A stretch of DNA of 64,000 nt from a bacterium (GCA_041690355.1 JAWLHK010000007.1:119122-183121); one strand, 5' to 3'; positions 4,109 to 37,342 are shown, counted from the stretch's first letter. Notes: generated by a model not told the origin, from the letters alone. Translations and numbers: made by a program.

Positions 4109-5509
4109 TTACGGGGACCTCTTCTGCCGTTTCGGGCGGAACAGGAAGATGCCGAACAGCATCCAGAAGACGGTGAGGCCGAGGGCGGCGCCGAAAAAGG
4201 TCGGGCCCCCGAATCGAGCGATGAGCGGAAGCGAGGCGGCCGTCACGAGCCCCCCGCCCACGAACGGCTCGGTCAGCAGCTGCTTGTAGCCGAACGCGTC
4301 CAGCGCCCCGGAGCGGTTGCGCGGATCGGCCATGCGGATGAGCAGCAGCCCCGTGACGGTCACGCCCATCGATTGCCCGAAATCGCCGATACCGCGCTCG
4401 AACCAGTGCTCCGGAAGCATGCGCGGGGCGAGGACGACAAACACAAAGACGTTCCACGCGATTCCCGTGAGGGCGAGCAGGAGAAAGGGAAGCAGATAGG
4501 CGCCCAGGATGCTCAGCGAAAGCGTGCTCAGGGCGGCGACGATGATGAAATCGAGCGATGCGCCCGAGATGCGGTTCATGAGGTGCCGATCGACGGCCGC
4601 GCCGTGCCCCAGACGGTCGAGCACGAGCTGAAGGATCACCCCGCCGAGCATGGCCATGGGAAACAGGGGGACGTGCGCGAGCAGCGCAAGCCCCCCCTCG
4701 CCGCCCCACGTCGCCTGCTCGATCAGGACGAGCCCCCGCAGAAGGAGCCATCCGAGCGCTATCGCCAGCGCGACGAATCCGATCTGGATGGCCAGCGGAT
4801 CCGTCGTCGGCTCGCCGCCCTTGCGCGGCGCGGGCTCTGACTCGAAAGCTGAATCCTCAAGTGCTGCGACTTCGGCGCGCGAATGCGGCTCCCCCGCCAG
4901 ACGCAGGCGCCCCGAGCGCACCCCCCAGTTGATGAGCGCCGTACCGATGACTACCCCCATCACGACGCCGACGGTCGCAAGCCCCATGGCCAGATCGGCC
5001 CCATCGGGAAAACCGAGGTCGCGAAAGGCCCCTGCCATCCCCGCGGCGGTGCCATGCCCGCCCTCGAAGGTAATCTCGATGAGCGCCCCGGCCAGGGGCG
5101 AAACGTCAAAGAAGGGGGTGAGCACGAGCAGCGTGAGCAGCATGCCGGCGGCGTACTGCCCCCACGCGAGCACTTGTCCGAACGCCACCTGGGGTCCCGC
5201 GCGTCGCCACACTTCGGCGGGGCCCGGAATGCGCGTGCCGAGAAACAGGGCGGCGAAAACGACGTTGATCAGGACGCCGGGGAGCGCGCGCCAGACGAGC
5301 ACGACCGCTTCGGGAAAAATCCCCCCGGGGGCCTCGGGCAGCCAGCGCCCGAGCACCTGCGCGCCCAGCAGCAGGCCGAGAACCCCGGCGAGAATGGAGC
5401 TCGGCAGAAAGATGCGCCGGAAGAGGGGGACGCGCTCGCGCACCAGGCGGCCGACGAGCAGAAGCAGGCCCAGCCAGAGCAGCGCCTGGAAAACGGAAAG
5501 CACGGACAT
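4109..5509 (-). CDS. gltS: Sodium/glutamate symporter (GltS family)
   Basis: FEGGHGTAAG motif, LPSSILAG, about 12 TM segments. Confidence 0.85.
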   Translation of the reverse strand: MSVLSVFQALLWLGLLLLVGRLVRERVPLFRRIFLPSSILAGVLGLLLGAQVLGRWLPEAPGGIFPEAVVLVWRALPGVLINVVFAALFLGTRIPGPAEVWRRAGPQVAFGQVLAWGQYAAGMLLTLLVLTPFFDVSPLAGALIEITFEGGHGTAAGMAGAFRDLGFPDGADLAMGLATVGVVMGVVIGTALINWGVRSGRLRLAGEPHSRAEVAALEDSAFESEPAPRKGGEPTTDPLAIQIGFVALAIALGWLLLRGLVLIEQATWGGEGGLALLAHVPLFPMAMLGGVILQLVLDRLGHGAAVDRHLMNRISGASLDFIIVAALSTLSLSILGAYLLPFLLLALTGIAWNVFVFVVLAPRMLPEHWFERGIGDFGQSMGVTVTGLLLIRMADPRNRSGALDAFGYKQLLTEPFVGGGLVTAASLPLIARFGGPTFFGAALGLTVFWMLFGIFLFRPKRQKRSP

Positions 5510-30289: not shown

Positions 30290-30524
30290 GCGCCCGGTGC
30301 GACCATTCCTGATGCCTGATTCTTGATTCCTGAGGCGGCAAGGGCGAAGACCACGCTCGCTTCGATCGCTTCCCCCCTCCTCCTTGCGAAGGAGGAGGAC
30401 CCCATGCGCCGGAAGCGCAGGGAGAGGCGGTCATCGACGCGCCCGGCGCGACCATTCCTGATTCCTGATTCCTGATTCCTGATTCCTGATTCCTGATTCC
30501 TGATTCCTGAGGCAGCAAGGGCGA
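30290..30524. repeat. Direct-repeat pair containing (ATTCCTG)n arrays and enclosing a REP-like hairpin
   Basis: GCGCCCGGYGCGACC-(ATTCCTG)n-AGGCRGCAAGGGCGA at 30290-30347 (4 partly degenerate units) and 30439-30524 (8 perfect units). Confidence 0.8.
30372..30430 (-). repeat. Diverged copy of the REP-like double-hairpin repeat
   Basis: CCTCCTCCTT-gcg-AAGGAGGAGG plus a TGCGC...GCGCA hairpin, same layout as 33603-33662. Confidence 0.6.
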
Positions 30525-31553: not shown

Positions 31554-31671
31554 GGGGGAGGACGATTCCTGATTCCTGATTCTTAATTCCTGAGCCGGAA
31601 AGGCCAAGGAAGCCAGTCAATTCCATGATCCCGTGAATATGGCCTTCACGCCAGTCTTCGCCCGCCCCGAC

Positions 31672-31701
31672 TTGACGAATGGTAGCTACAGTAGCTACCT
31701 T
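31672..31701 (+). promoter_or_regulatory. TA operon promoter with overlapping palindromic operator
   Basis: TTGACG-18 nt-TACCTT; palindrome GGTAGCTAC-A-GTAGCTACC at 31681-31699. Confidence 0.7.
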
Positions 31702-31707
31702 GGAATC

Positions 31708-32025
31708 ATGAAAGCTGTCGGCATCAAGAACCTGAAAAACAACCTGAGCCGTTACCTGAACCTGGTGCGCGAGGGCGAAATCGTCTACGTGACCGATCGG
31801 GACGAGATCATCGCCGAAATCCATAAGCCGGTGTCGGCACCGACCCGCGTGATTTCCCGGTGGGATGCCTTTCTGAATGAGCTCGAACGTAAGGGGAGCG
31901 TCGTCCGGGCCAGACGCACGGAGTCGACCATCGATGAGGACATGAAGCGGCTGACTTTGAAGCGACCGGCCGGAAGCCCTACGCTCGAGGAATTGCTTGA
32001 AGAAACCCGGGAAGATCGCTTCTGA
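31708..32025 (+). CDS. Phd/YefM family antitoxin
   Basis: MKAVGIKNLKNNLSRYLNLVREGEIVYVTDR pattern; stop overlaps the toxin start (TGATG). Confidence 0.88.
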   Translation: MKAVGIKNLKNNLSRYLNLVREGEIVYVTDRDEIIAEIHKPVSAPTRVISRWDAFLNELERKGSVVRARRTESTIDEDMKRLTLKRPAGSPTLEELLEETREDRF

Positions 32026-32465
32026 TGACGGTCGCCTATTTCGACGCCGGAGTTCTGCTTTCGATCCTTCTGAACGAGCGTTCAGCGGCGGATGCGCGTT
32101 CACTGTGGCTGCATTATCCGCAACGTGTGTCCTCGATCCTTTTTGAAGCGGAATGCCTGACGACGCTGCGAAGGGCGGCACCGTCAGTCGGAAGAAAAAA
32201 GGCTGCCAGCGATTGGCTCCGGGAAAAGTCCGCTTTTCTTGCCGAACGAATGCAGGAAATCACGGTTCAGCACGTCGACAGCAATGTTCTGTCCCGCCTC
32301 CGGGACGAACCTGCGCTTGGCGCATGCCGTACGTTCGACGCCGTTCACCTGGCGACGGCCCTGTACTTCCGGGAGCGCACGGACGATGGGCTCGTCTTGA
32401 TCTCGCTGGATAAGCGGATGCGAGAGACGGCTGCTCTGTTCAAATTTCCCATCCTTCCTGCCTGA
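32025..32465 (+). CDS. vapC: PIN-domain (VapC family) toxin
   Basis: AYFDAG, conserved Glu, RTFDAVHLATA and SLDKRM motifs. Confidence 0.88.
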   Translation: MTVAYFDAGVLLSILLNERSAADARSLWLHYPQRVSSILFEAECLTTLRRAAPSVGRKKAASDWLREKSAFLAERMQEITVQHVDSNVLSRLRDEPALGACRTFDAVHLATALYFRERTDDGLVLISLDKRMRETAALFKFPILPA

Positions 32466-32546
32466 CCATTCTCACGAAGCCTCCTGCTCCCGGGGGCCCG
32501 CCCTGTGGACGCTCTGCCCGGCGGTGCGCTATGCTTTAGGATCCGT

Positions 32547-33599
32547 ATGACAAACAAAGCCATTCAACGCGCGTTCTTTCTCGGCCTCGTCCTGCTGACG
32601 ACGGTCGGCTTTCTCTGGCTCATCAACGACTACCTGGAACCGGTGTTCTGGGCGGCCGTCATGGCCATCCTGTTCTACCCCGTGCAGCGCCGCTGGCTGG
32701 GGGTGACGGGCAATCGGCCCTCGGCCGCCGCCGGGCTCTCCATCCTGACGGTCGTTCTCATCGTGCTCATCCCGCTTTTCTTTGTCGGGCTGGCGGTCAC
32801 CAACGAGTCGATCAACTTCTATGAGCGCCTGTCGCAGGGAGACCTGCGCGACACGCCGGCCGCGGTGCTCGAGCGCCTTCGCCCGGCGCTCGAACGGCTC
32901 GAGCAGGTCTCCGACCGGTTCCGCATCGACGAGCAGGAGATCACGACGCGCGTTTCGCAGGGGGTCGTGCAGCTGAGTCAAGGGCTCGCGGGGCGCGCCG
33001 TCGCCATCGGACAGAACGCGGTGCGCTTCACAATCGCGCTCTTCGTGATGCTCTACGTGCTCTTTTTCTTCCTGCGCGGGGGGCCGGCGATCATCGACAA
33101 GCTGATTCGCGTGCTTCCCCTCGGCGACATCCGGGAGCGCCGCCTGTTCGCAAAGTTTGAAGAGGTTTCGCGCGCGACCATCAAGGGGACGCTCGTCATC
33201 GGCATCGTCCAGGGTGCGCTCGGCGGCATTCTCTTTCTCATCGCCGGCGTCACGGCCCCGGTCTTCTGGGCCGTCATCATGACGATTCTTTCGATCATTC
33301 CGGCCGTGGGCGCGGGCCTCATCTGGGCGCCGGCGGGGATCATCCTGCTGCTGACCGGCAAGATGTGGCAGGGGGTGCTCGTGCTGACTGCAGGCGCGCT
33401 CATCATCGGGCTGGTCGACAACCTGCTGCGCCCCAAGCTCGTCGGCAAAGATACGCAGATGCCCGACGCGCTCGTGCTCCTCTCCACCCTGGGCGGCCTG
33501 GCCGTCTTCGGCATCTCGGGCTTCGTCATCGGCCCGATCATCGCCGCCTTCTTCCTCGTCGTGTGGGATATGTTCGAGGAAGAGTTCAACCGGGAGTAG
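32547..33599 (+). CDS. AI-2E family transporter
   Basis: IIPAVG, DNLLRPKLVG and STLGGLAVFGISGFVIGPII motifs. Confidence 0.92.
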   Translation: MTNKAIQRAFFLGLVLLTTVGFLWLINDYLEPVFWAAVMAILFYPVQRRWLGVTGNRPSAAAGLSILTVVLIVLIPLFFVGLAVTNESINFYERLSQGDLRDTPAAVLERLRPALERLEQVSDRFRIDEQEITTRVSQGVVQLSQGLAGRAVAIGQNAVRFTIALFVMLYVLFFFLRGGPAIIDKLIRVLPLGDIRERRLFAKFEEVSRATIKGTLVIGIVQGALGGILFLIAGVTAPVFWAVIMTILSIIPAVGAGLIWAPAGIILLLTGKMWQGVLVLTAGALIIGLVDNLLRPKLVGKDTQMPDALVLLSTLGGLAVFGISGFVIGPIIAAFFLVVWDMFEEEFNRE

Positions 33600-33602
33600 G
33601 CG

Positions 33603-33662
33603 CACCACCTCCCGCCTGCGCTGCCGCGCATGGCGCCCTCCTCCTCCAGCGAGGAGGAGGGG
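33603..33662 (+). repeat. REP-like double-hairpin repeat, copy A (left flank of DUF559)
   Basis: CACCACCTCCC-gcc-TGCGC tgcc GCGCA-tggcg-CCCTCCTCCTC cagc GAGGAGGAGGG. Confidence 0.85.
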
Positions 33663-33717
33663 ATAGTATCACCAGGGGGTACCTTGGTTGACTCAGGTGT
33701 GATATGTTCGCCATGTC

Positions 33718-34089
33718 ATGGGGAACATCTTCAACCGCCGGGTGTGGAAAGAGAAGCGGCAGCGGCTGCGCAATCGAGCGACTCGCGAAGAGCGAATTCT
33801 CTGGCAATACCTGCGCGGGCGTGGCGTGGGAGATGCCAAATTCCGTAGGCAGGCGAGCATCGGCCCCTACATCGTCGACTTTTATTGTCCGGCGCACAGG
33901 CTGGCGATTGAGCTCGATGGCGGTCAACATGGCCAGGAAAGCGCCAAAGCCTACGACGGGATCCGCACCGACTACCTGTCGTCACTCGGGATCCGAGTCC
34001 TGCGATTTCCCAACGCAATGATCCGCGATCGTCTTGAAGAAGTCCGGGTTACAATCGCGGCTTCCATAGCACCACAATCTGCACCTTGA
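33718..34089 (+). CDS. DUF559 (Vsr-like PD-(D/E)xK) endonuclease
   Basis: LRNRATREERILWQYLR, FRRQASIGPYIVDFYC, IELDGGQH and D..RT.YL...G.RVLRF.N motifs. Confidence 0.93.
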   Translation: MGNIFNRRVWKEKRQRLRNRATREERILWQYLRGRGVGDAKFRRQASIGPYIVDFYCPAHRLAIELDGGQHGQESAKAYDGIRTDYLSSLGIRVLRFPNAMIRDRLEEVRVTIAASIAPQSAP

Positions 34090-34090
34090 A

Positions 34091-34175
34091 CCCTCCTCCT
34101 CGCTGGAGGAGGAGGGTCCGGGCGGGTCGATCCCGCCCGGGGGAGGTGGTTGCCGGCAGCCCGGGGGAGGTGGTG
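34091..34175 (-). repeat. REP-like repeat, copy B (right flank of DUF559, inverted relative to A)
   Basis: Same 26-nt main hairpin as copy A in reverse orientation; ACCACCTCCC leader present twice, with different inner hairpins. Confidence 0.85.
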
Positions 34176-34180
34176 CCTCT

Positions 34181-35644
34181 TCAATCGCTCGGGCACTTCT
34201 CCTTCGTCAGCCCGTACGCCGCCAGCTTTGACGGCGTGAGCGGATCGTCCTCGGCAACCGCATCGAGATCGACGGGCGGAATCGACGTACCCAACGCCTT
34301 GTTCATGTGCTCGAGGAAAAGGTTCGCGAGCACGGCGTAGCCGACCTTCGTGAGGTGAAGACCATCGAGGCTGATGAAGCCGCCGAAGTTGTCGACGGTG
34401 AACTCCTCGCCGTTGATGACCATCCCCTCGCGGTACATCCGGTCGAGCGTTTCGGAGAACGGAACCACGACCGCGCGCGGATACTTCGCGGACTCTTCCT
34501 TGAGAATCGCATTGAGCTCGGCCACGCGGTCGCGTACGCTCTGGATGCCCGCGTCGACCTCCTCGGGCGTGTGTCCGCGGGCAATCAGATTCCGCCGCCG
34601 GATGCGGGAATCCGGAATGAGCGTGATGTCGGGGAGATCGGCAAAAAAGACCCAGGTGTCCGGGCCGAGCCGCGAGAACAACTCGCGGTAGTTCGTGCGG
34701 AAGTATTCGTCGTCGGCGATGCGCGAGCCGTCGAACATGCTCCCCCACAGCGCGGGGAGCACGTCGTTTCCTGTCAGGTCGACCGCCATGACGAGCGTCG
34801 GCTTGCGCTCTGCCACGTAGTCGAGCTCGCTCCCCTGGCGCGGGCGCTGCAGGATACCGACCCAGTCGACGAACGGATCGTAAACGAGATGCTCCAGGAG
34901 GACGACAGCTTTCTGCTCCTGCGTGATCGCGCCGTTCACGACGCCGCCGATGACCGAACCGCCGACCGCTGCGTTGCGCACCTCGATGGTTGGGTCGATG
35001 CGCAGCCCCCACGGCTGCAGGCGACCGGTGTAAGCCTGGAACCCTTCCAGGGCATGATCAAGCTGCGCCACGAGGCGCTGGTCTGAGCCCTGCACCGAAC
35101 AGGTTCCCTCGAAATCGGCCGGATGGGTCTCTGGAATATACCCCTGCTTCGTGAGCGGCAGCGGGAAATAGGCGCCGACCGCTCGCGCCACCTGGGCGCT
35201 CGGAGCGTGCATCTGGCCGTCGGGGCCGAAGCTGTTGTTGATGACCCCCTGGCCGAAGCTCGCGCCGATGCTGAACATGCGCTCGAAGGCCGGATGCGGA
35301 ATCGGCTTCACGGTCAGCGCGTCGGCAATGCGGAAAGATTTTCCCGCGGCGCGCACGTCGATGTCGGCGGTGGCGTCGGGCGAACCCTGCCAGCGGAAGG
35401 TCACCGTCGTGGGCGACTCGAGGGTGAGATCGTAGACGGCATTTCCCGCAATCGTGATTTCGGGGGACCCGCCGAAGATCGGCTCTGCCGCCTTCACGCG
35501 CAGCAGCTCGTGACCGAAGGCGCTCACGGTCTTCGGTTCCACAATGGCCGAAACGATCTGCGGTCCGCCCGCGGGGGCGGCCGAATCCTCGGTGCTGCAG
35601 GCGGCCAGCAGAGCGGCCATGACTAAAAGGGGCAGGTACTTCAT
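34181..35644 (-). CDS. SGNH/GDSL-like hydrolase lipoprotein with an N-terminal IPT/Ig-like domain
   Basis: LAAC lipobox; IGASFGQG, NAAVGG, GNDVL and SLDGLHLT blocks. Confidence 0.8.
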   Translation of the reverse strand: MKYLPLLVMAALLAACSTEDSAAPAGGPQIVSAIVEPKTVSAFGHELLRVKAAEPIFGGSPEITIAGNAVYDLTLESPTTVTFRWQGSPDATADIDVRAAGKSFRIADALTVKPIPHPAFERMFSIGASFGQGVINNSFGPDGQMHAPSAQVARAVGAYFPLPLTKQGYIPETHPADFEGTCSVQGSDQRLVAQLDHALEGFQAYTGRLQPWGLRIDPTIEVRNAAVGGSVIGGVVNGAITQEQKAVVLLEHLVYDPFVDWVGILQRPRQGSELDYVAERKPTLVMAVDLTGNDVLPALWGSMFDGSRIADDEYFRTNYRELFSRLGPDTWVFFADLPDITLIPDSRIRRRNLIARGHTPEEVDAGIQSVRDRVAELNAILKEESAKYPRAVVVPFSETLDRMYREGMVINGEEFTVDNFGGFISLDGLHLTKVGYAVLANLFLEHMNKALGTSIPPVDLDAVAEDDPLTPSKLAAYGLTKEKCPSD

Positions 35645-35768
35645 GCCCGTTATGGTACCAAGGCATGGAGGTGGCCGCCCGATGGGCAACCGCACGGCCC
35701 TCGGCCTTCGTCAGGCGGCGGCTGGCGGAGAATCCTCTTGTGGTCTCGGCAAATCTTGGTTCACCTCA

Positions 35769-35828
35769 CCCCTCCTCCTCGTTGGAGGAGGAGGGCGCCA
35801 TGCGCGCCAGCGCAGGCGGGAGGTGGTG
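35769..35828 (-). repeat. REP-like repeat, copy C
   Basis: Reverse complement matches copy A at 58/60 positions; both differences fall in hairpin loops. Confidence 0.88.
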
Positions 35829-36089
35829 CTACCCGCGCGCCTTCTCCTCGGCCTCGAGCCTGTCGAGGTGCGCGAGCATGTTCTTTACAAGCTCGGGCTC
35901 GTCGCCGTAGAAGCGGCGCAGCAGATGACGCCGCTTGTCCCACTCCGTCGCGCCGGGAGGAAGGCTGGCCAGCACGAACGCGCGCGCGGTTTCGAACATG
36001 TCGGTCCCCATGAGGAACCGTTCTTCGGGCGTGCGCTCCATCATCATCTTGAAGACGAGGGCCTCGATTTCGGGAGACGTATCCTTCAT
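35829..36089 (-). CDS. Small hypothetical protein, putative partner of the nucleotidyltransferase
   Basis: MKDTSPE...RTPEERFLM; ATGA overlap with the upstream gene; AGGAG RBS. Confidence 0.75.
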   Translation of the reverse strand: MKDTSPEIEALVFKMMMERTPEERFLMGTDMFETARAFVLASLPPGATEWDKRRHLLRRFYGDEPELVKNMLAHLDRLEAEEKARG

Positions 36090-36637
36090 GAAGCAAGCTC
36101 CTTCCGCAGCGCATGCAGGCGCGCATCTACGCCGAGGCGAGCGGCCCAGGATTCCAGATACTCCGCATCGGTTCCCGTCTGAAGCAACGCGCGAATGTCC
36201 CGGGCCTGCACCTCAGAGGCCGAGTCTGCCGACCAGAGGAGTTTCGAAAGGATGAGGTCCTCCTTGGACACCACCCACGCTTCGAAGCCGTTGACGCGAA
36301 GGCGGACCCGCCGGTTGAATTCAAGCCGGCGGTATTCATCCGGCTTGCGGATGATCATGTCGACCTTCACGATGCTCGTATTGTGGATGAGATTGAAGAG
36401 GCTGCGACGAGTGATCGCCTCGGATACCGCTTCGGCGCTCACGTAGTAGGCGTCGCCGAAGAGTGCCTCCACCCGCTGCACGCTGTCTGCGGAAAGCTCG
36501 ACGACGATATCGATATCCCGGGTCATGCGGGGCTGCGCATAAGCGTTCAGCGCCATGGAACCGGTCAGCATATAGGGAATCCCCGCGGAATCCAGCCGCG
36601 AGGCGACGTCGCGGAGAACGTCGAGTTCGGCACTCAT
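36086..36637 (-). CDS. Pol-beta superfamily nucleotidyltransferase (TA-associated type)
   Basis: YMLTGSMA...PRMTRDIDIVV motif, KVDM, EDLILSKL. Confidence 0.85.
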   Translation of the reverse strand: MSAELDVLRDVASRLDSAGIPYMLTGSMALNAYAQPRMTRDIDIVVELSADSVQRVEALFGDAYYVSAEAVSEAITRRSLFNLIHNTSIVKVDMIIRKPDEYRRLEFNRRVRLRVNGFEAWVVSKEDLILSKLLWSADSASEVQARDIRALLQTGTDAEYLESWAARLGVDARLHALRKELAS

Positions 36638-36708: not shown

Positions 36709-36785
36709 TGGTGGGCCCGAAGAGATTCGAACTCCTGACCCTCAGATTCGTAGTCTGATGCTCTATCCAACTGAGCTACGGGCCC
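36709..36785 (-). tRNA. tRNA-Arg(ACG)
   Basis: 77 nt; GGGCCCG acceptor stem, anticodon ACG, TTCGAAT T-loop, encoded CCA. Confidence 0.97.
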
Positions 36786-36961
36786 ACGCGAAATATGTAA
36801 TTGATCAGTATACCATCCCACGCCGCTCTTGAGAAGGGGTTTCCCTCTTTATTGCTTTGCGTCTGGTGGCTGAAGATTTGACGATCTCTGGAGTGGCAGG
36901 CGATTGACGGCTTCGAAAAATCGTCAATCGTCAATCGTAAATCGTCAATTCCGGTGAATAC

Positions 36962-37051
36962 TGGCGGAGAGGGAGGGATTCGAACCCTCGATACGGTTTC
37001 CCGTATGCAGGTTTAGCAAACCTGTGCCTTCAGCCACTCGGCCACCTCTCC
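36962..37051 (-). tRNA. tRNA-Ser(GCT)
   Basis: 90 nt; long variable arm, CAGGT-TT-GCT-AA-ACCTG anticodon arm, GCCA end. Confidence 0.97.
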
Positions 37052-37097
37052 TGAAAGCGTATTCATTTGTCTCCGACCGCCCCCGGACCAGGAAAAC

Positions 37098-37185
37098 TGG
37101 CGGAGGGGGTGGGATTCGAACCCACGGTACCTTTCGGTACAACGGTTTTCAAGACCGCCGCCTTAAACCGCTCGGCCACCCCTCC
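37098..37185 (-). tRNA. tRNA-Ser(TGA)
   Basis: 88 nt; long variable arm, anticodon TGA, GCCA end. Confidence 0.97.
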
Positions 37186-37342
37186 CGAATCCCCGATCGC
37201 GGAGCGACCGCAAAGAGATCAATTATACCGGCCGGCGGCCCTTTCCGCAAAGACCGTGAAGCCCGACAGGGGGAATCCATGCCTGCCTCGGCCTCCCCTT
37301 TTTTCGGGTCCCCCCTCGGCGGACGACAGGGGGCCGGCGCGG

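What the first reader, a model, noticed from the sequence alone, without database searches (positions are those of the whole stretch)
33603..34175. DUF559 endonuclease bracketed by inverted REP-like repeats: a REPtron-like unit with a non-HUH nuclease
Seen: a lone 123-aa DUF559 gene lies between two inward-facing copies of CACCACCTCCC-[variable hairpin]-CCCTCCTCCTCCAGCGAGGAGGAGGG. The right copy begins 1 nt after its stop, and the ~570-bp unit exactly fills the gap between two convergent host genes. Solo copies occur at 35769-35828 and 30372-30430. Established: REP/RAYT systems have this layout (nuclease gene flanked by inverted REPs plus dispersed solo REPs) but use an HUH tyrosine transposase, whereas DUF559 is a Vsr-like PD-(D/E)xK nuclease of unassigned role. 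Inference: DUF559 recognises or nicks these hairpins and spreads or maintains them, forming a minimal selfish element with non-autonomous derivatives. This is my best candidate for an undescribed system here.
Basis: partly seen in the sequence, partly recalled or inferred. Interest (0 to 1): 0.8.

Follow-up and report, generated by a model that had tools for sequence, protein, structure and literature searches.

The report
DUF559 nuclease cassette with triplex-repeat ends
A small nuclease gene of unknown role sits between two inverted copies of a folded DNA repeat that is also scattered through the genome, which points to a partner enzyme for a long-known but unexplained family of bacterial repeats.

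Summary
A 123-aa DUF559 (Vsr-like) gene at 33718-34089 is bracketed by inverted repeat arms at 33603-33661 and 34091-34175. The unit fills the gap between two convergent host genes.

The pattern is general. All 5 DUF559 loci of this genome have the same layout, each with its own repeat family. Every same-family inverted repeat pair spaced 400-950 bp encloses a DUF559 gene. One gene-less doublet elsewhere has the same two arms as this cassette (left arm 60 of 60 identical), so it looks like a MITE-like twin. In 78 DUF559 loci from many phyla, inverted flanks occur in 46, against 3 of 162 neighbouring ORFs.

The arms are not classical REPs. They fit the BoxC/PIT/TM "class II intrastrand triplex motif" of E. 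coli: pyrimidine arm, purine arm, then a mirror G-rich box. Here a 22-nt variable hairpin sits in the second loop.

My best reading (0.6) is a REP/RAYT-like selfish unit whose nuclease is DUF559. Cleavage of the repeat is inferred, not shown, and I found no empty site.

The scan has noted this pairing before on other DNA (93 notes). My literature searches found no paper on it.

The parts
32505..33599 (+). Context, not part of the unit: AI-2E family transporter gene; its stop codon lies 3 nt before the left arm
   Evidence: PF01594 E 1.1e-50; sequence
33603..33661 (-). Left arm. The class II triplex-type motif reads on the minus strand. Y/R hairpin 33636-33661 (gene-proximal), type-1 inner hairpin 33614-33635, terminal box 33603-33613 (CACCACCTCCC on the plus strand, GGGAGGTGGTG on the minus strand).
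   Evidence: fold, z -5.9/-5.5; mirror rule 11 of 11
33662..33717 (+). 56-nt spacer between the left hairpin and the DUF559 start codon; no sigma-70-like site found
33718..34089 (+). DUF559 (Vsr-like PD-(D/E)xK) gene, 123 aa. It carries the D54, E65, D67 and H71 columns that are invariant or nearly so in the 16-sequence alignment. GC3 is 0.65, against 0.83-0.88 in the neighbouring genes.
34091..34175 (+). Right arm. Y/R hairpin 34091-34116, type-2 inner hairpin 34118-34140, third domain GGGAGGTGGTT 34141-34151, GCCGGCAGCCCGG 34152-34164, second copy of the box GGGAGGTGGTG 34165-34175.
   Evidence: mirror 10 of 11; z -4.6/-6.5
34181..35695 (-). Context, not part of the unit: GDSL/SGNH-type gene; its stop codon lies 5 nt beyond the right arm
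   Evidence: PF00657 E 5.6e-05
35770..35828 (+). Solo copy of family A (type-1 inner hairpin). Its terminal box ends directly at the stop codon of the 86-aa ORF 35829-36089 (-).
   Evidence: (mirror 11 of 11)
30372..30430 (+). Solo copy of the sister type (CCTCCTCCTT-GCG-AAGGAGGAGG) with a degenerate third box
   Evidence: (7 of 10)

Best explanation
The 573-bp unit 33603-33175 region (33603-34175) is one compact selfish cassette. It consists of a DUF559 (Vsr-like PD-(D/E)xK) endonuclease gene between two inverted copies of a BoxC/TM-type repeat. Each arm holds a pyrimidine-arm/purine-arm hairpin next to the gene, a variable hairpin, and an outer G-rich box that mirrors the purine arm. The same arms occur without the gene, as solo copies and as short inverted doublets. 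The relation therefore resembles that of a RAYT gene to its REPs/REPINs, or of an autonomous element to its MITEs. Shown: the layout, its recurrence for every DUF559 paralogue with a family-specific repeat, the gene-less twin, and the recurrence across phyla. Inferred: DUF559 binds the folded form of its cognate repeat (hairpin or intrastrand triplex on the G-rich strand) and nicks or cuts there. Repair, template switching or recombination at these breaks would then copy or keep arms and cassette, and would also account for the genome instability reported around such motifs.
For: (1) This genome has 5 DUF559 loci. All 5 are bracketed by triplex-type motifs on both sides, always with the third domain pointing away from the gene. 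Each gene's flanks carry its own repeat family, apart from pattern cross-matches between the similar A/B/B' and C/E families. (2) Reverse test. The genome has 147 merged motif loci (182 raw calls, against 25 in a reversed-genome control). Inverted pairs within 1.5 kb number 15 'out' and 1 'in'. All same-family pairs with 400-950 bp gaps are the 5 DUF559 loci, and the other same-geometry pairs are gene-less doublets with 28-53 bp gaps. (3) The doublet at G000:C12:5017-5184 has a left arm 60 of 60 identical to this cassette's left arm. Its right arm matches the cassette's over about 72 nt, including the type-2 inner hairpin and CCGGCAGCCC beyond the box. Its Y/R hairpin is kept by compensatory changes. 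(4) Broad sample, 80 named loci from many phyla. An inverted-flank score of at least 30 occurs in 46 of 78 DUF559 loci against 3 of 162 control ORFs in the same loci, and at least 40 in 34 of 78 against 1 of 162. At least one motif lies within 250 bp in 70 of 78. In a first set, 15 of 23 loci scored above their shuffles; 4 of these 15 are this genome's own. (5) The nuclease looks functional. The D54, E65 and D67 columns are invariant and H71 nearly so in 16 sequences. The closest solved structures are 3HRL (E 1.5e-19 by sequence) and, by fold, the homing endonuclease I-Bth0305I, PvuRts1I and Vsr. (6) Paralogue similarity ((C7,C1),(C18,C3b),C3a) parallels repeat similarity ((A,B),(C,E),D). (7) DUF559 GC3 is 0.63-0.75 against 0.83-0.88 in the neighbours, as expected for a foreign or mobile gene. 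(8) The only HUH/Y1 gene in the genome is not flanked by these repeats. (9) Holder et al. 2015 (sections 3 and 18 read, and term searches) report heterotypic inverted pairs of the E. coli motif and instability at motif loci. They found no link to mobile elements and do not mention ycjD, DUF559 or any endonuclease.
Against: No biochemical or expression evidence ties DUF559 to the repeat. No empty site or insertion polymorphism was found for this cassette. The one same-family genome is not syntenic here, and none of 57 metagenome loci with an AI-2E relative carries an SGNH or DUF559 gene beside it. No two cassettes in the genome are near-identical, so recent movement of the gene itself is not shown. 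No target-site duplication was seen by eye. Repeat type follows protein distance only weakly in the broad sample (Mantel r 0.107, 4 of 2000 permutations reach it), and the signal comes mostly from the 12 closest pairs. The five-paralogue agreement has about a 1 in 15 chance expectation. In other phyla the motif can face the gene either way, so a fixed geometry is not required. A PD-(D/E)xK nuclease alone has no known way to do strand transfer. The 8 of 78 loci without a nearby motif, and E. coli ycjD with a canonical motif on one side only, show that the pairing is not obligatory.
Confidence: 0.6

Rival explanations
1. DUF559 is a free-standing homing-type endonuclease gene that parasitises the repeat. 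It cuts gene-less inverted doublets and is copied into them by repair. The repeats themselves arise and spread by some other route. The gene exploits the repeats but does not spread them.
For: Gene-less doublets with the cassette's geometry and the same heterotypic arm pair exist. The closest characterised fold is a homing endonuclease catalytic domain, I-Bth0305I (E 1.1e-04). The DUF559 ORF abuts or runs into the downstream hairpin.
Against: Each repeat family in this genome has exactly one cognate DUF559 locus, and almost no motif family lacks one. That fits a maintaining partner better than an occasional parasite. Doublet spacers of 28-53 bp show no remnant of, or similarity to, the cassette interior (local scores 13-16), so the direction of derivation is open. 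No identical cassettes at several sites were found.
Confidence: 0.2
2. DUF559 is a housekeeping Vsr-type mismatch endonuclease that repairs T:G from 5-methylcytosine deamination, as proposed for Caulobacter VsrA. The flanking repeats are incidental: they accumulate in any tolerant intergenic space or act as insulators.
For: Passages found by term search in PMC12907096 describe a DUF559-containing Caulobacter protein, VsrA, as functionally linked to a solitary cytosine methyltransferase. The genome has one C5-methyltransferase gene. Vsr is a fold neighbour (E 0.05-0.07).
Against: There are five DUF559 loci against one C5-methyltransferase. One copy is broken by an insertion. GC3 is atypical. 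The flank association is far above that of control ORFs (46 of 78 against 3 of 162) and is family-specific. Holder et al. cite earlier work that found no promoter or terminator activity for these motifs.
Confidence: 0.1
3. The two arms belong to the two convergent host genes as 3'-end elements (for instance mRNA 3' stabilisers), and the DUF559 gene merely lies between them.
For: Stop codons of host-like genes lie 0-12 nt from the outer box in 27 of 118 elements and next to the hairpin end in 0 of 118. Both arms of this cassette obey that rule with respect to the AI-2E and SGNH genes.
Against: With about 20 family-A copies in the genome, two independent same-family insertions at one convergent pair are very unlikely. 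The same heterotypic arm pair recurs as one unit at C12:5017-5184. The other cassettes keep paired arms where no host stop codon adjoins, such as the upstream arm at C1. The box fits the DNA purine-motif rule (T or A opposite A), not the RNA-compatible pyrimidine rule. No terminator-like site was found.
Confidence: 0.05

Closest known systems
[quoted passage not shown] 2015, PMC4666352; earlier work by Hoyne, Maher and colleagues as cited there)
   Same: The order is the same: pyrimidine arm, loop, purine arm, loop, then a G-rich box that mirrors the purine arm with G opposite G and T or A opposite A. This scores 10-11 of 11 in both arms here. The copies are intergenic and dispersed. Close inverted pairs always join two different subtypes: type A with type B in E. 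coli, type-1 with type-2 inner hairpin here. Family D of this genome has the short loops of the canonical motif. E. coli K-12 ycjD, a DUF559 gene, has a canonical motif about 170 nt downstream.
   Different: In families A, B, C and E the second loop is 20-22 nt, and in A and B it forms a variable hairpin; 83 of 94 long loops are distinct. That is outside the 1-6 nt loops of the published finder. The published work names no partner gene and found no link to mobile elements. Here every family has a DUF559 gene between two copies. Triplex formation by these sequences is untested.
   Same: A single-copy nuclease gene flanked by two inverted copies of a structured repeat. Dispersed solo copies and inverted doublets of the same repeat. 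Several gene and repeat-family pairs in one genome. Preference for gene 3' ends.
   Different: The enzyme is a PD-(D/E)xK Vsr-like nuclease, not an HUH/Y1 transposase. The one Y1 gene of this genome is not flanked by these repeats. The repeat carries a mirror-repeat third domain that REPs lack.
I-Bth0305I (EDxHD family) homing endonuclease, PDB 3R3P (PMC3239194; only the start of its abstract in a search listing was seen)
   Same: Second-best structural match of the model (E 1.1e-04, TM 0.60/0.74). A Vsr-like nuclease core used by a selfish genetic element.
   Different: I-Bth0305I sits in a phage group I intron and has an extra DNA-binding region. This protein is a bare 123-aa domain in a free-standing cassette with repeat ends, and sequence identity is 22-23%.
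NGO0050 'endonuclease-like protein' of Neisseria gonorrhoeae, PDB 3HRL
   Same: Same family: phmmer E 1.5e-19 over residues 21-112 and top fold match (E 2.4e-07, 38% identity).
   Different: The entry carries no functional information. Its genomic flanks were not examined here.

Membership tests
Pfam DUF559 (PF04480) | Profile match above the curated cut-off | tested here: met
   106.7 bits against a cut-off of 20.6, E 7.6e-31, profile positions 4-107 of 109
Vsr-like PD-(D/E)xK nucleases | Nuclease core fold with conserved acidic and His residues (D...ExD...H) | tested here: met
   D54, E65 and D67 invariant and H71 at least 90% conserved in 16 sequences. AlphaFold2 model pLDDT 85.8. Fold matches to 3HRL, I-Bth0305I and PvuRts1I; Vsr itself only at E 0.05-0.07.
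Vsr-like PD-(D/E)xK nucleases | T:G mismatch nicking linked to a cytosine methyltransferase | not testable with these tools
   There is no adjacent methyltransferase. The genome has one PF00145 gene on another contig.
REP/RAYT system | Nuclease gene flanked by inverted copies of the repeat, with dispersed solo copies and doublets | tested here: met
   5 of 5 loci; reverse test; about 118-147 dispersed copies
REP/RAYT system | The enzyme is an HUH/Y1 tyrosine transposase (PF01797) | tested here: not met
   The cassette gene matches DUF559 only. The single PF01797 gene at G000:C3:284649-284990 has no such flanks.
BoxC/PIT/TM class II intrastrand triplex motif | 5' pyrimidine domain, then a Watson-Crick complementary purine domain | tested here: met
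   An 11-12 bp perfect Y/R hairpin in both arms
BoxC/PIT/TM class II intrastrand triplex motif | 3' third domain antiparallel to the purine domain with G*G and A/T*A triplets (mirror repeat) | tested here: met
   11 of 11 (left arm) and 10 of 11 (right arm). 29 of 40 Y/R hairpins with stems of at least 8 bp have such a box within 50 nt. The direct-repeat control also passes in 16, because GGA-periodic arms are self-similar; families B and C do discriminate, for example 10 of 11 mirror against 7-8 direct.
BoxC/PIT/TM class II intrastrand triplex motif | Short loops (1-6 nt in ITxF; 0-10 nt in the earlier search) | tested here: not met
   Loop 2 is 22 nt in both arms and forms its own hairpin. 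94 of 147 motif loci have a loop 2 of at least 15 nt, and 44 have one of at most 6 nt.
BoxC/PIT/TM class II intrastrand triplex motif | Forms a triplex in vitro (CD, NMR, footprinting) | not testable with these tools
   The folding tools used model Watson-Crick pairs only.
MITE / TIR transposon pair | Terminal inverted repeats shared by a gene-bearing copy and a gene-less copy | tested here: met
   The C12:5017-5184 doublet against this cassette
MITE / TIR transposon pair | Target-site duplication and a recognisable transposase | tested here: not met
   No direct repeat was seen at the ends of the cassette, doublets or solo copies (inspection only). The only gene inside is DUF559.
Homing endonuclease gene | Resides in an intron or intein, or at a cleavable allelic empty site | tested here: inconclusive
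   There is no intron or intein context. No empty site could be found.

The most novel reading that the evidence does not exclude
BoxC/PIT/TM triplex-type repeats across bacteria are the non-autonomous derivatives of DUF559 cassettes. DUF559 would then be a structure-specific nickase that recognises the folded (hairpin or triplex) form of its cognate repeat. This would define a new class of minimal mobile or self-maintaining element built on a PD-(D/E)xK nuclease instead of a transposase. It would also explain the genome instability reported at these motifs.
Probability: 0.4. Interest if true: 0.9.

Novelty: new variant of a known kind. Interest (0 to 1): 0.78.

Why it matters
Two long-standing orphans would explain each other. 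DUF559 is a very large family of small nucleases, including E. coli YcjD, with no assigned role. BoxC/PIT/TM repeats have been known since the 1990s, occur in hundreds of genomes and are linked to genome rearrangement, yet no partner enzyme has been published. If DUF559 acts on these repeats, the case becomes a second, mechanistically different example of the REP/RAYT principle, with a PD-(D/E)xK nuclease and a non-B DNA structure. It would also give a direct, cheap experiment: protein plus oligonucleotide. This genome is a clean natural test set, with five paralogues, five repeat families and one gene-less twin.

Tried and rejected
Empty site. The SGNH and AI-2E orthologues of the only same-family genome (G001) lie on different contigs with other neighbours. 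None of the 57 metagenome loci encoding an AI-2E relative (at most 58% identity) has an SGNH or DUF559 match beside it. This gives no evidence either way.

Sequencing runs: none was listed for 32900-34900, so no read-level test of excision or polymorphism was possible.

Dimer prediction of DUF559 (two copies, alignment A1): no support, score 0.00 against a mark of 0.42. This is not evidence for or against binding.

Rfam: no family matches at the arms or the cassette; only three tRNAs and sub-threshold hits at 36712-37197. The promoter and terminator scan of 33400-34400 found nothing.

RAYT as the mobiliser: rejected.

RNA triple helix in the host 3' UTRs: considered and rejected. The box has A where the pyrimidine (RNA-capable) motif needs T/U, while the G-rich DNA strand fits the purine motif at 10-11 of 11.

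A first alignment of 16 DUF559 proteins was too diverse for the locus scan. A 5-sequence alignment worked.

My crude GC3-based gene caller covers only 71% of the genome. I used it only for GC3 context. The stop-codon test uses its own ORF and GC3 filter.

Loose regexes for families D and E over-call (control 24 for E), so per-family copy numbers are approximate.

One literature search (ycjD or BoxC, any term) returned only irrelevant 'boxcar' papers.

Supplementary tables of Holder et al., which hold the motif lists and neighbouring genes, were not opened. They might show ycjD next to a motif.

Full report
**What is there.** The window is G000:C7:119122-183121 of a 4.64-Mb, 65.6% GC draft genome. 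The ORF at 33718-34089 (+) encodes 123 aa and matches Pfam DUF559 at E 7.6e-31. Upstream lies an AI-2E transporter gene (32505-33599, +). Downstream lies a convergent GDSL/SGNH gene (34181-35695, -).

The left arm (33603-33661) reads CACCACCTCCC, then a 22-nt imperfect hairpin, then the perfect hairpin CCCTCCTCCTCC-AGC-GAGGAGGAGGG. The right arm (34091-34175) is the inverse design. It has a different 9-bp inner hairpin, and the terminal box occurs twice. The gaps are 3 nt to the AI-2E stop, 1 nt from the DUF559 stop to the right hairpin, and 5 nt to the SGNH stop.

The 26-nt hairpin is found three times in the window, and 0 of 100 shuffles gave a match. Each arm folds as two adjacent hairpins plus a free 10-11-nt box, with z-scores from -3.8 to -6.5.

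**The repeat is a triplex-type motif.** Read on the strand where the hairpin comes first, each arm has four parts in order: a pyrimidine arm, a purine arm, an inner hairpin, and GGGAGGTGGT(G/T). That last box is the mirror image of the purine arm GAGGAGGAGGG, with G opposite G and T opposite A. It scores 11 of 11 in the left arm and 10 of 11 in the right.

This is the rule for a class II (purine-motif) intrastrand triplex as defined by Holder et al. 2015 (PMC4666352; passages found by term search, section 18 read). Those authors studied it as BoxC/PIT/TM(ECO) of E. coli. I took the lead from earlier notes of this scan and tested it here.

- Of 40 Y/R hairpins with stems of at least 8 bp in the genome, 29 carry such a mirror box within 50 nt.
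- For the GGA-periodic family A a direct-repeat control fits equally well. Families B and C discriminate, for example 10 of 11 mirror against 7-8 direct.
- A genome-wide finder gives 182 motif calls, against 25 in a reversed-genome control. These merge to 147 loci.

The difference from the published motif is loop 2. It is 20-22 nt in families A, B, C and E, and only family D has the canonical 2-4 nt. Of the 147 loci, 94 have a loop 2 of at least 15 nt, with 83 distinct sequences. Only 33 of those 94 fold better than 95% of their own shuffles, so a strong 'variable hairpin' holds for families A and B and only weakly for C and E.

**Every DUF559 gene of the genome has its own pair.** PF04480 finds 5 loci: 4 intact and one split by an insertion of about 280 bp with terminal inverted repeats. 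All 5 have motifs on both sides, always with the hairpin next to the gene and the box pointing outward. Each has its own repeat family:

| Locus | Repeat family |
|---|---|
| C7 (this window) | A |
| C1 | B/B' |
| C18 | C |
| C3 at 20.7 kb | D |
| C3 at 309 kb | E, with tandem copies downstream |

Family-by-gene counts show no foreign family at any gene, apart from pattern cross-matches between the similar A/B/B' and C/E families. Copy numbers under strict patterns are A 22, B 17, C 10, D 42 and E 27. These are approximate.

The reverse test is clean. Among inverted motif pairs no more than 1.5 kb apart there are 15 'out' pairs and 1 'in' pair. All same-family pairs with gaps of 400-950 bp are the five DUF559 loci. 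The remaining same-geometry pairs are gene-less doublets with gaps of 28-53 bp, plus a few mixed-family pairs.

**A gene-less twin of this cassette.** The left arm of G000:C12:5017-5184 is 60 of 60 identical to the left arm here. A 53-bp spacer follows, unrelated to the cassette interior (local scores 13-16). The right arm then matches the cassette's right arm over about 72 nt. The match includes the type-2 inner hairpin, the box and CCGGCAGCCC beyond it. Its Y/R hairpin differs but stays paired through changes on both sides.

A second, more decayed doublet of the same type-1 plus type-2 design lies at C1:332340-332500. Holder et al. report the same habit in E. coli: five close inverted pairs, each joining a type A and a type B motif. 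So the two arms travel as a heterotypic pair, with or without the gene. That is the relation of an autonomous element to a MITE, or of a RAYT locus to REPINs.

**Beyond this genome.**
- In a first set of 23 scorable DUF559 loci, mostly from other phyla, 15 had inverted flanks above their shuffles; 4 of those 15 are this genome's own.
- In 80 named loci, from Bacteroidota, Patescibacteria, cyanobacteria, Pseudomonadota, Verrucomicrobiota and others, 78 could be scored.
- An inverted-flank score of at least 30 occurred in 46 of 78, against 3 of 162 control ORFs from the same loci. A score of at least 40 occurred in 34 of 78 against 1 of 162.
- At least one triplex-type motif lies within 250 bp in 70 of 78. 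With a stricter stem, 71 of 78 DUF559 loci had one against 24 of 162 controls.
- Unlike here, many of these loci have the box facing the gene, and some have doublets on each side.
- E. coli K-12 ycjD has a canonical motif about 170 nt downstream, after a duplicated fragment of its own 3' end, and none upstream.

Kin are not independent, so these ratios describe the sample and are not proper tests.

**The protein.** D54, E65 and D67 are invariant and H71 is nearly so in 16 sequences. The nearest solved structure by sequence is 3HRL, an unannotated 'endonuclease-like protein' (E 1.5e-19). The AlphaFold2 model has pLDDT 85.8. It matches 3HRL, then the catalytic domain of the homing endonuclease I-Bth0305I, then PvuRts1I/AbaSI and Vsr. 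GC3 of the four intact paralogues is 0.63-0.75, against 0.83-0.88 for the two neighbours.

**Co-variation.** Among the five paralogues the best protein pairs are C7-C1 (score 318) and C18-C3b (score 250; the halves of C3b were scored separately). This matches the repeat similarities A-B and C-E. With five taxa that agreement has about a 1 in 15 chance. Across 69 loci the Mantel correlation between protein distance and purine-arm distance is r = 0.107, and 4 of 2000 permutations reach it. It is driven by the 12 closest pairs, with mean arm distance 0.11 against about 0.37 elsewhere. So co-variation is real but weak, and it is compatible with simple co-inheritance of gene and arms.

**An unexplained polarity.** Stop codons of genes with host-like GC3 lie 0-12 nt from the outer box (one case at -14) in 27 of 118 elements. 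None of the 118 has one next to the hairpin end. Both arms of this cassette follow the rule with respect to the AI-2E and SGNH genes, and so does the solo copy at 35770-35828. This is far more than gene-strand bias could give. Holder et al. saw no such trend in E. coli. It may reflect target choice or selection, and I cannot tell which.

**What it most likely is.** The shown part is that arms plus gene form one unit with gene-less derivatives, in this genome and widely elsewhere. The inferred part is that DUF559 recognises the folded repeat and nicks or cuts it, and that break repair, template switching or recombination then copies or preserves arms and cassette. This would fit the instability that Holder et al. 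report at motif loci (abstract).

Rivals:
- A homing-type gene that merely targets doublets (0.2).
- A housekeeping Vsr-type repair nuclease, as proposed for Caulobacter VsrA (passages found by term search in PMC12907096), with incidental flanks (0.1).
- Arms as 3' elements of the host genes (0.05).

The only HUH/Y1 gene of the genome is not associated with these repeats.

**Novelty.**
- DUF559 + repeat returned 18 papers; the 15 listed, judged by title and abstract start, are not on this topic.
- DUF559 + triplex returned 0 papers.
- 'ycjD' as a whole word returned 13 papers, none on repeats by title.
- 'intrastrand triplex' + bacterial + repeat from 2015 returned 14 papers, none naming a partner enzyme by title.
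- Vsr-like + palindromic + mobile returned 8 papers, with none of the 5 listed relevant.
- Holder et al. contain no occurrence of ycjD, DUF559 or endonuclease.
- The 2005 PD-(D/E)xK survey, in the three passages that mention YcjD, treats it only as a Vsr relative.

The library lacks most subscription journals, and supplements were closed. This scan has noted the pairing before on other DNA: 93 notes hold the search words. Those notes gave me the BoxC/TM lead and are not independent evidence.

I rate the finding a new variant of a known kind: the REP/RAYT or MITE logic, with a different enzyme class and a non-B-DNA repeat.

Noticed in passing
G000:C23:55982-56708 (L174), G000:C26:16253-16896 (L176), G000:C5:79137-79928 (L175): Small genes of the 23S rRNA-IVS / four-helix-bundle family are bracketed by inverted arrays of tandem heptamers. 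PF05635 matches at E 1.1e-25 (L174) and 7e-16 (L176); the L175 gene was not scanned.
   Followed up: partly
G000:C3:309470-309750 (inside L178): The fifth DUF559 gene is interrupted by an insertion of about 280 bp with terminal inverted repeats (AACAGGG[T/C]GTTGAAATAT). It looks like a MITE of another kind. Repeat family E of this gene is nevertheless abundant and forms tandem copies just downstream.
   Followed up: no
genome-wide; in the window 33597-33613, 34165-34183, 35818-35831: Strong polarity of the repeats. Host gene stop codons abut the outer box in 27 of 118 elements (0-12 nt away; one case at -14) and never abut the hairpin end (0 of 118). In several copies the stop codon (TGA) directly precedes the box.
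   Followed up: partly
window 35829-36637 (-): A two-gene pair: a 183-aa AbiEii-like nucleotidyltransferase (PF08843, E 2.1e-05) overlapping by 4 nt an 86-aa ORF with no Pfam match. It looks like a type IV toxin-antitoxin pair.
   Followed up: no
window 31633-32465 (+): A Phd/YefM-like antitoxin ORF (PF02604, E 1.3e-05, below the cut-off) overlapping by 1 nt a PIN-domain ORF (PF01850, E 2.4e-09). It looks like a VapBC-type toxin-antitoxin pair.
   Followed up: partly
window about 30430-30520 and many intergenic sites of G000: Tandem heptamer runs (GGAATCA-type here; CACTCGT, GACGATT, GACGCCG and others elsewhere) fill many spacers, often next to the triplex-type repeats.
   Followed up: no
L031 (E. 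coli K-12 NC_000913) 4205-4420, minus strand: Downstream of ycjD lies a duplicated fragment of about 40 nt of its own 3' end, followed by a canonical BoxC/TM motif. The ycjD start region lies in a long hairpin (CACCTCATTCTGACAA...TTGTCAGAATGAGGTG).
   Followed up: no
L142 (contig titled Candidatus Bathyarchaeia archaeon): A DUF559 gene flanked on both sides by the E. coli-type motif CCCTCTCCC...GGGAGAGGG...GGGTGAGGG sits in a MAG labelled archaeal. It is either cross-domain transfer or a binning error.
   Followed up: no
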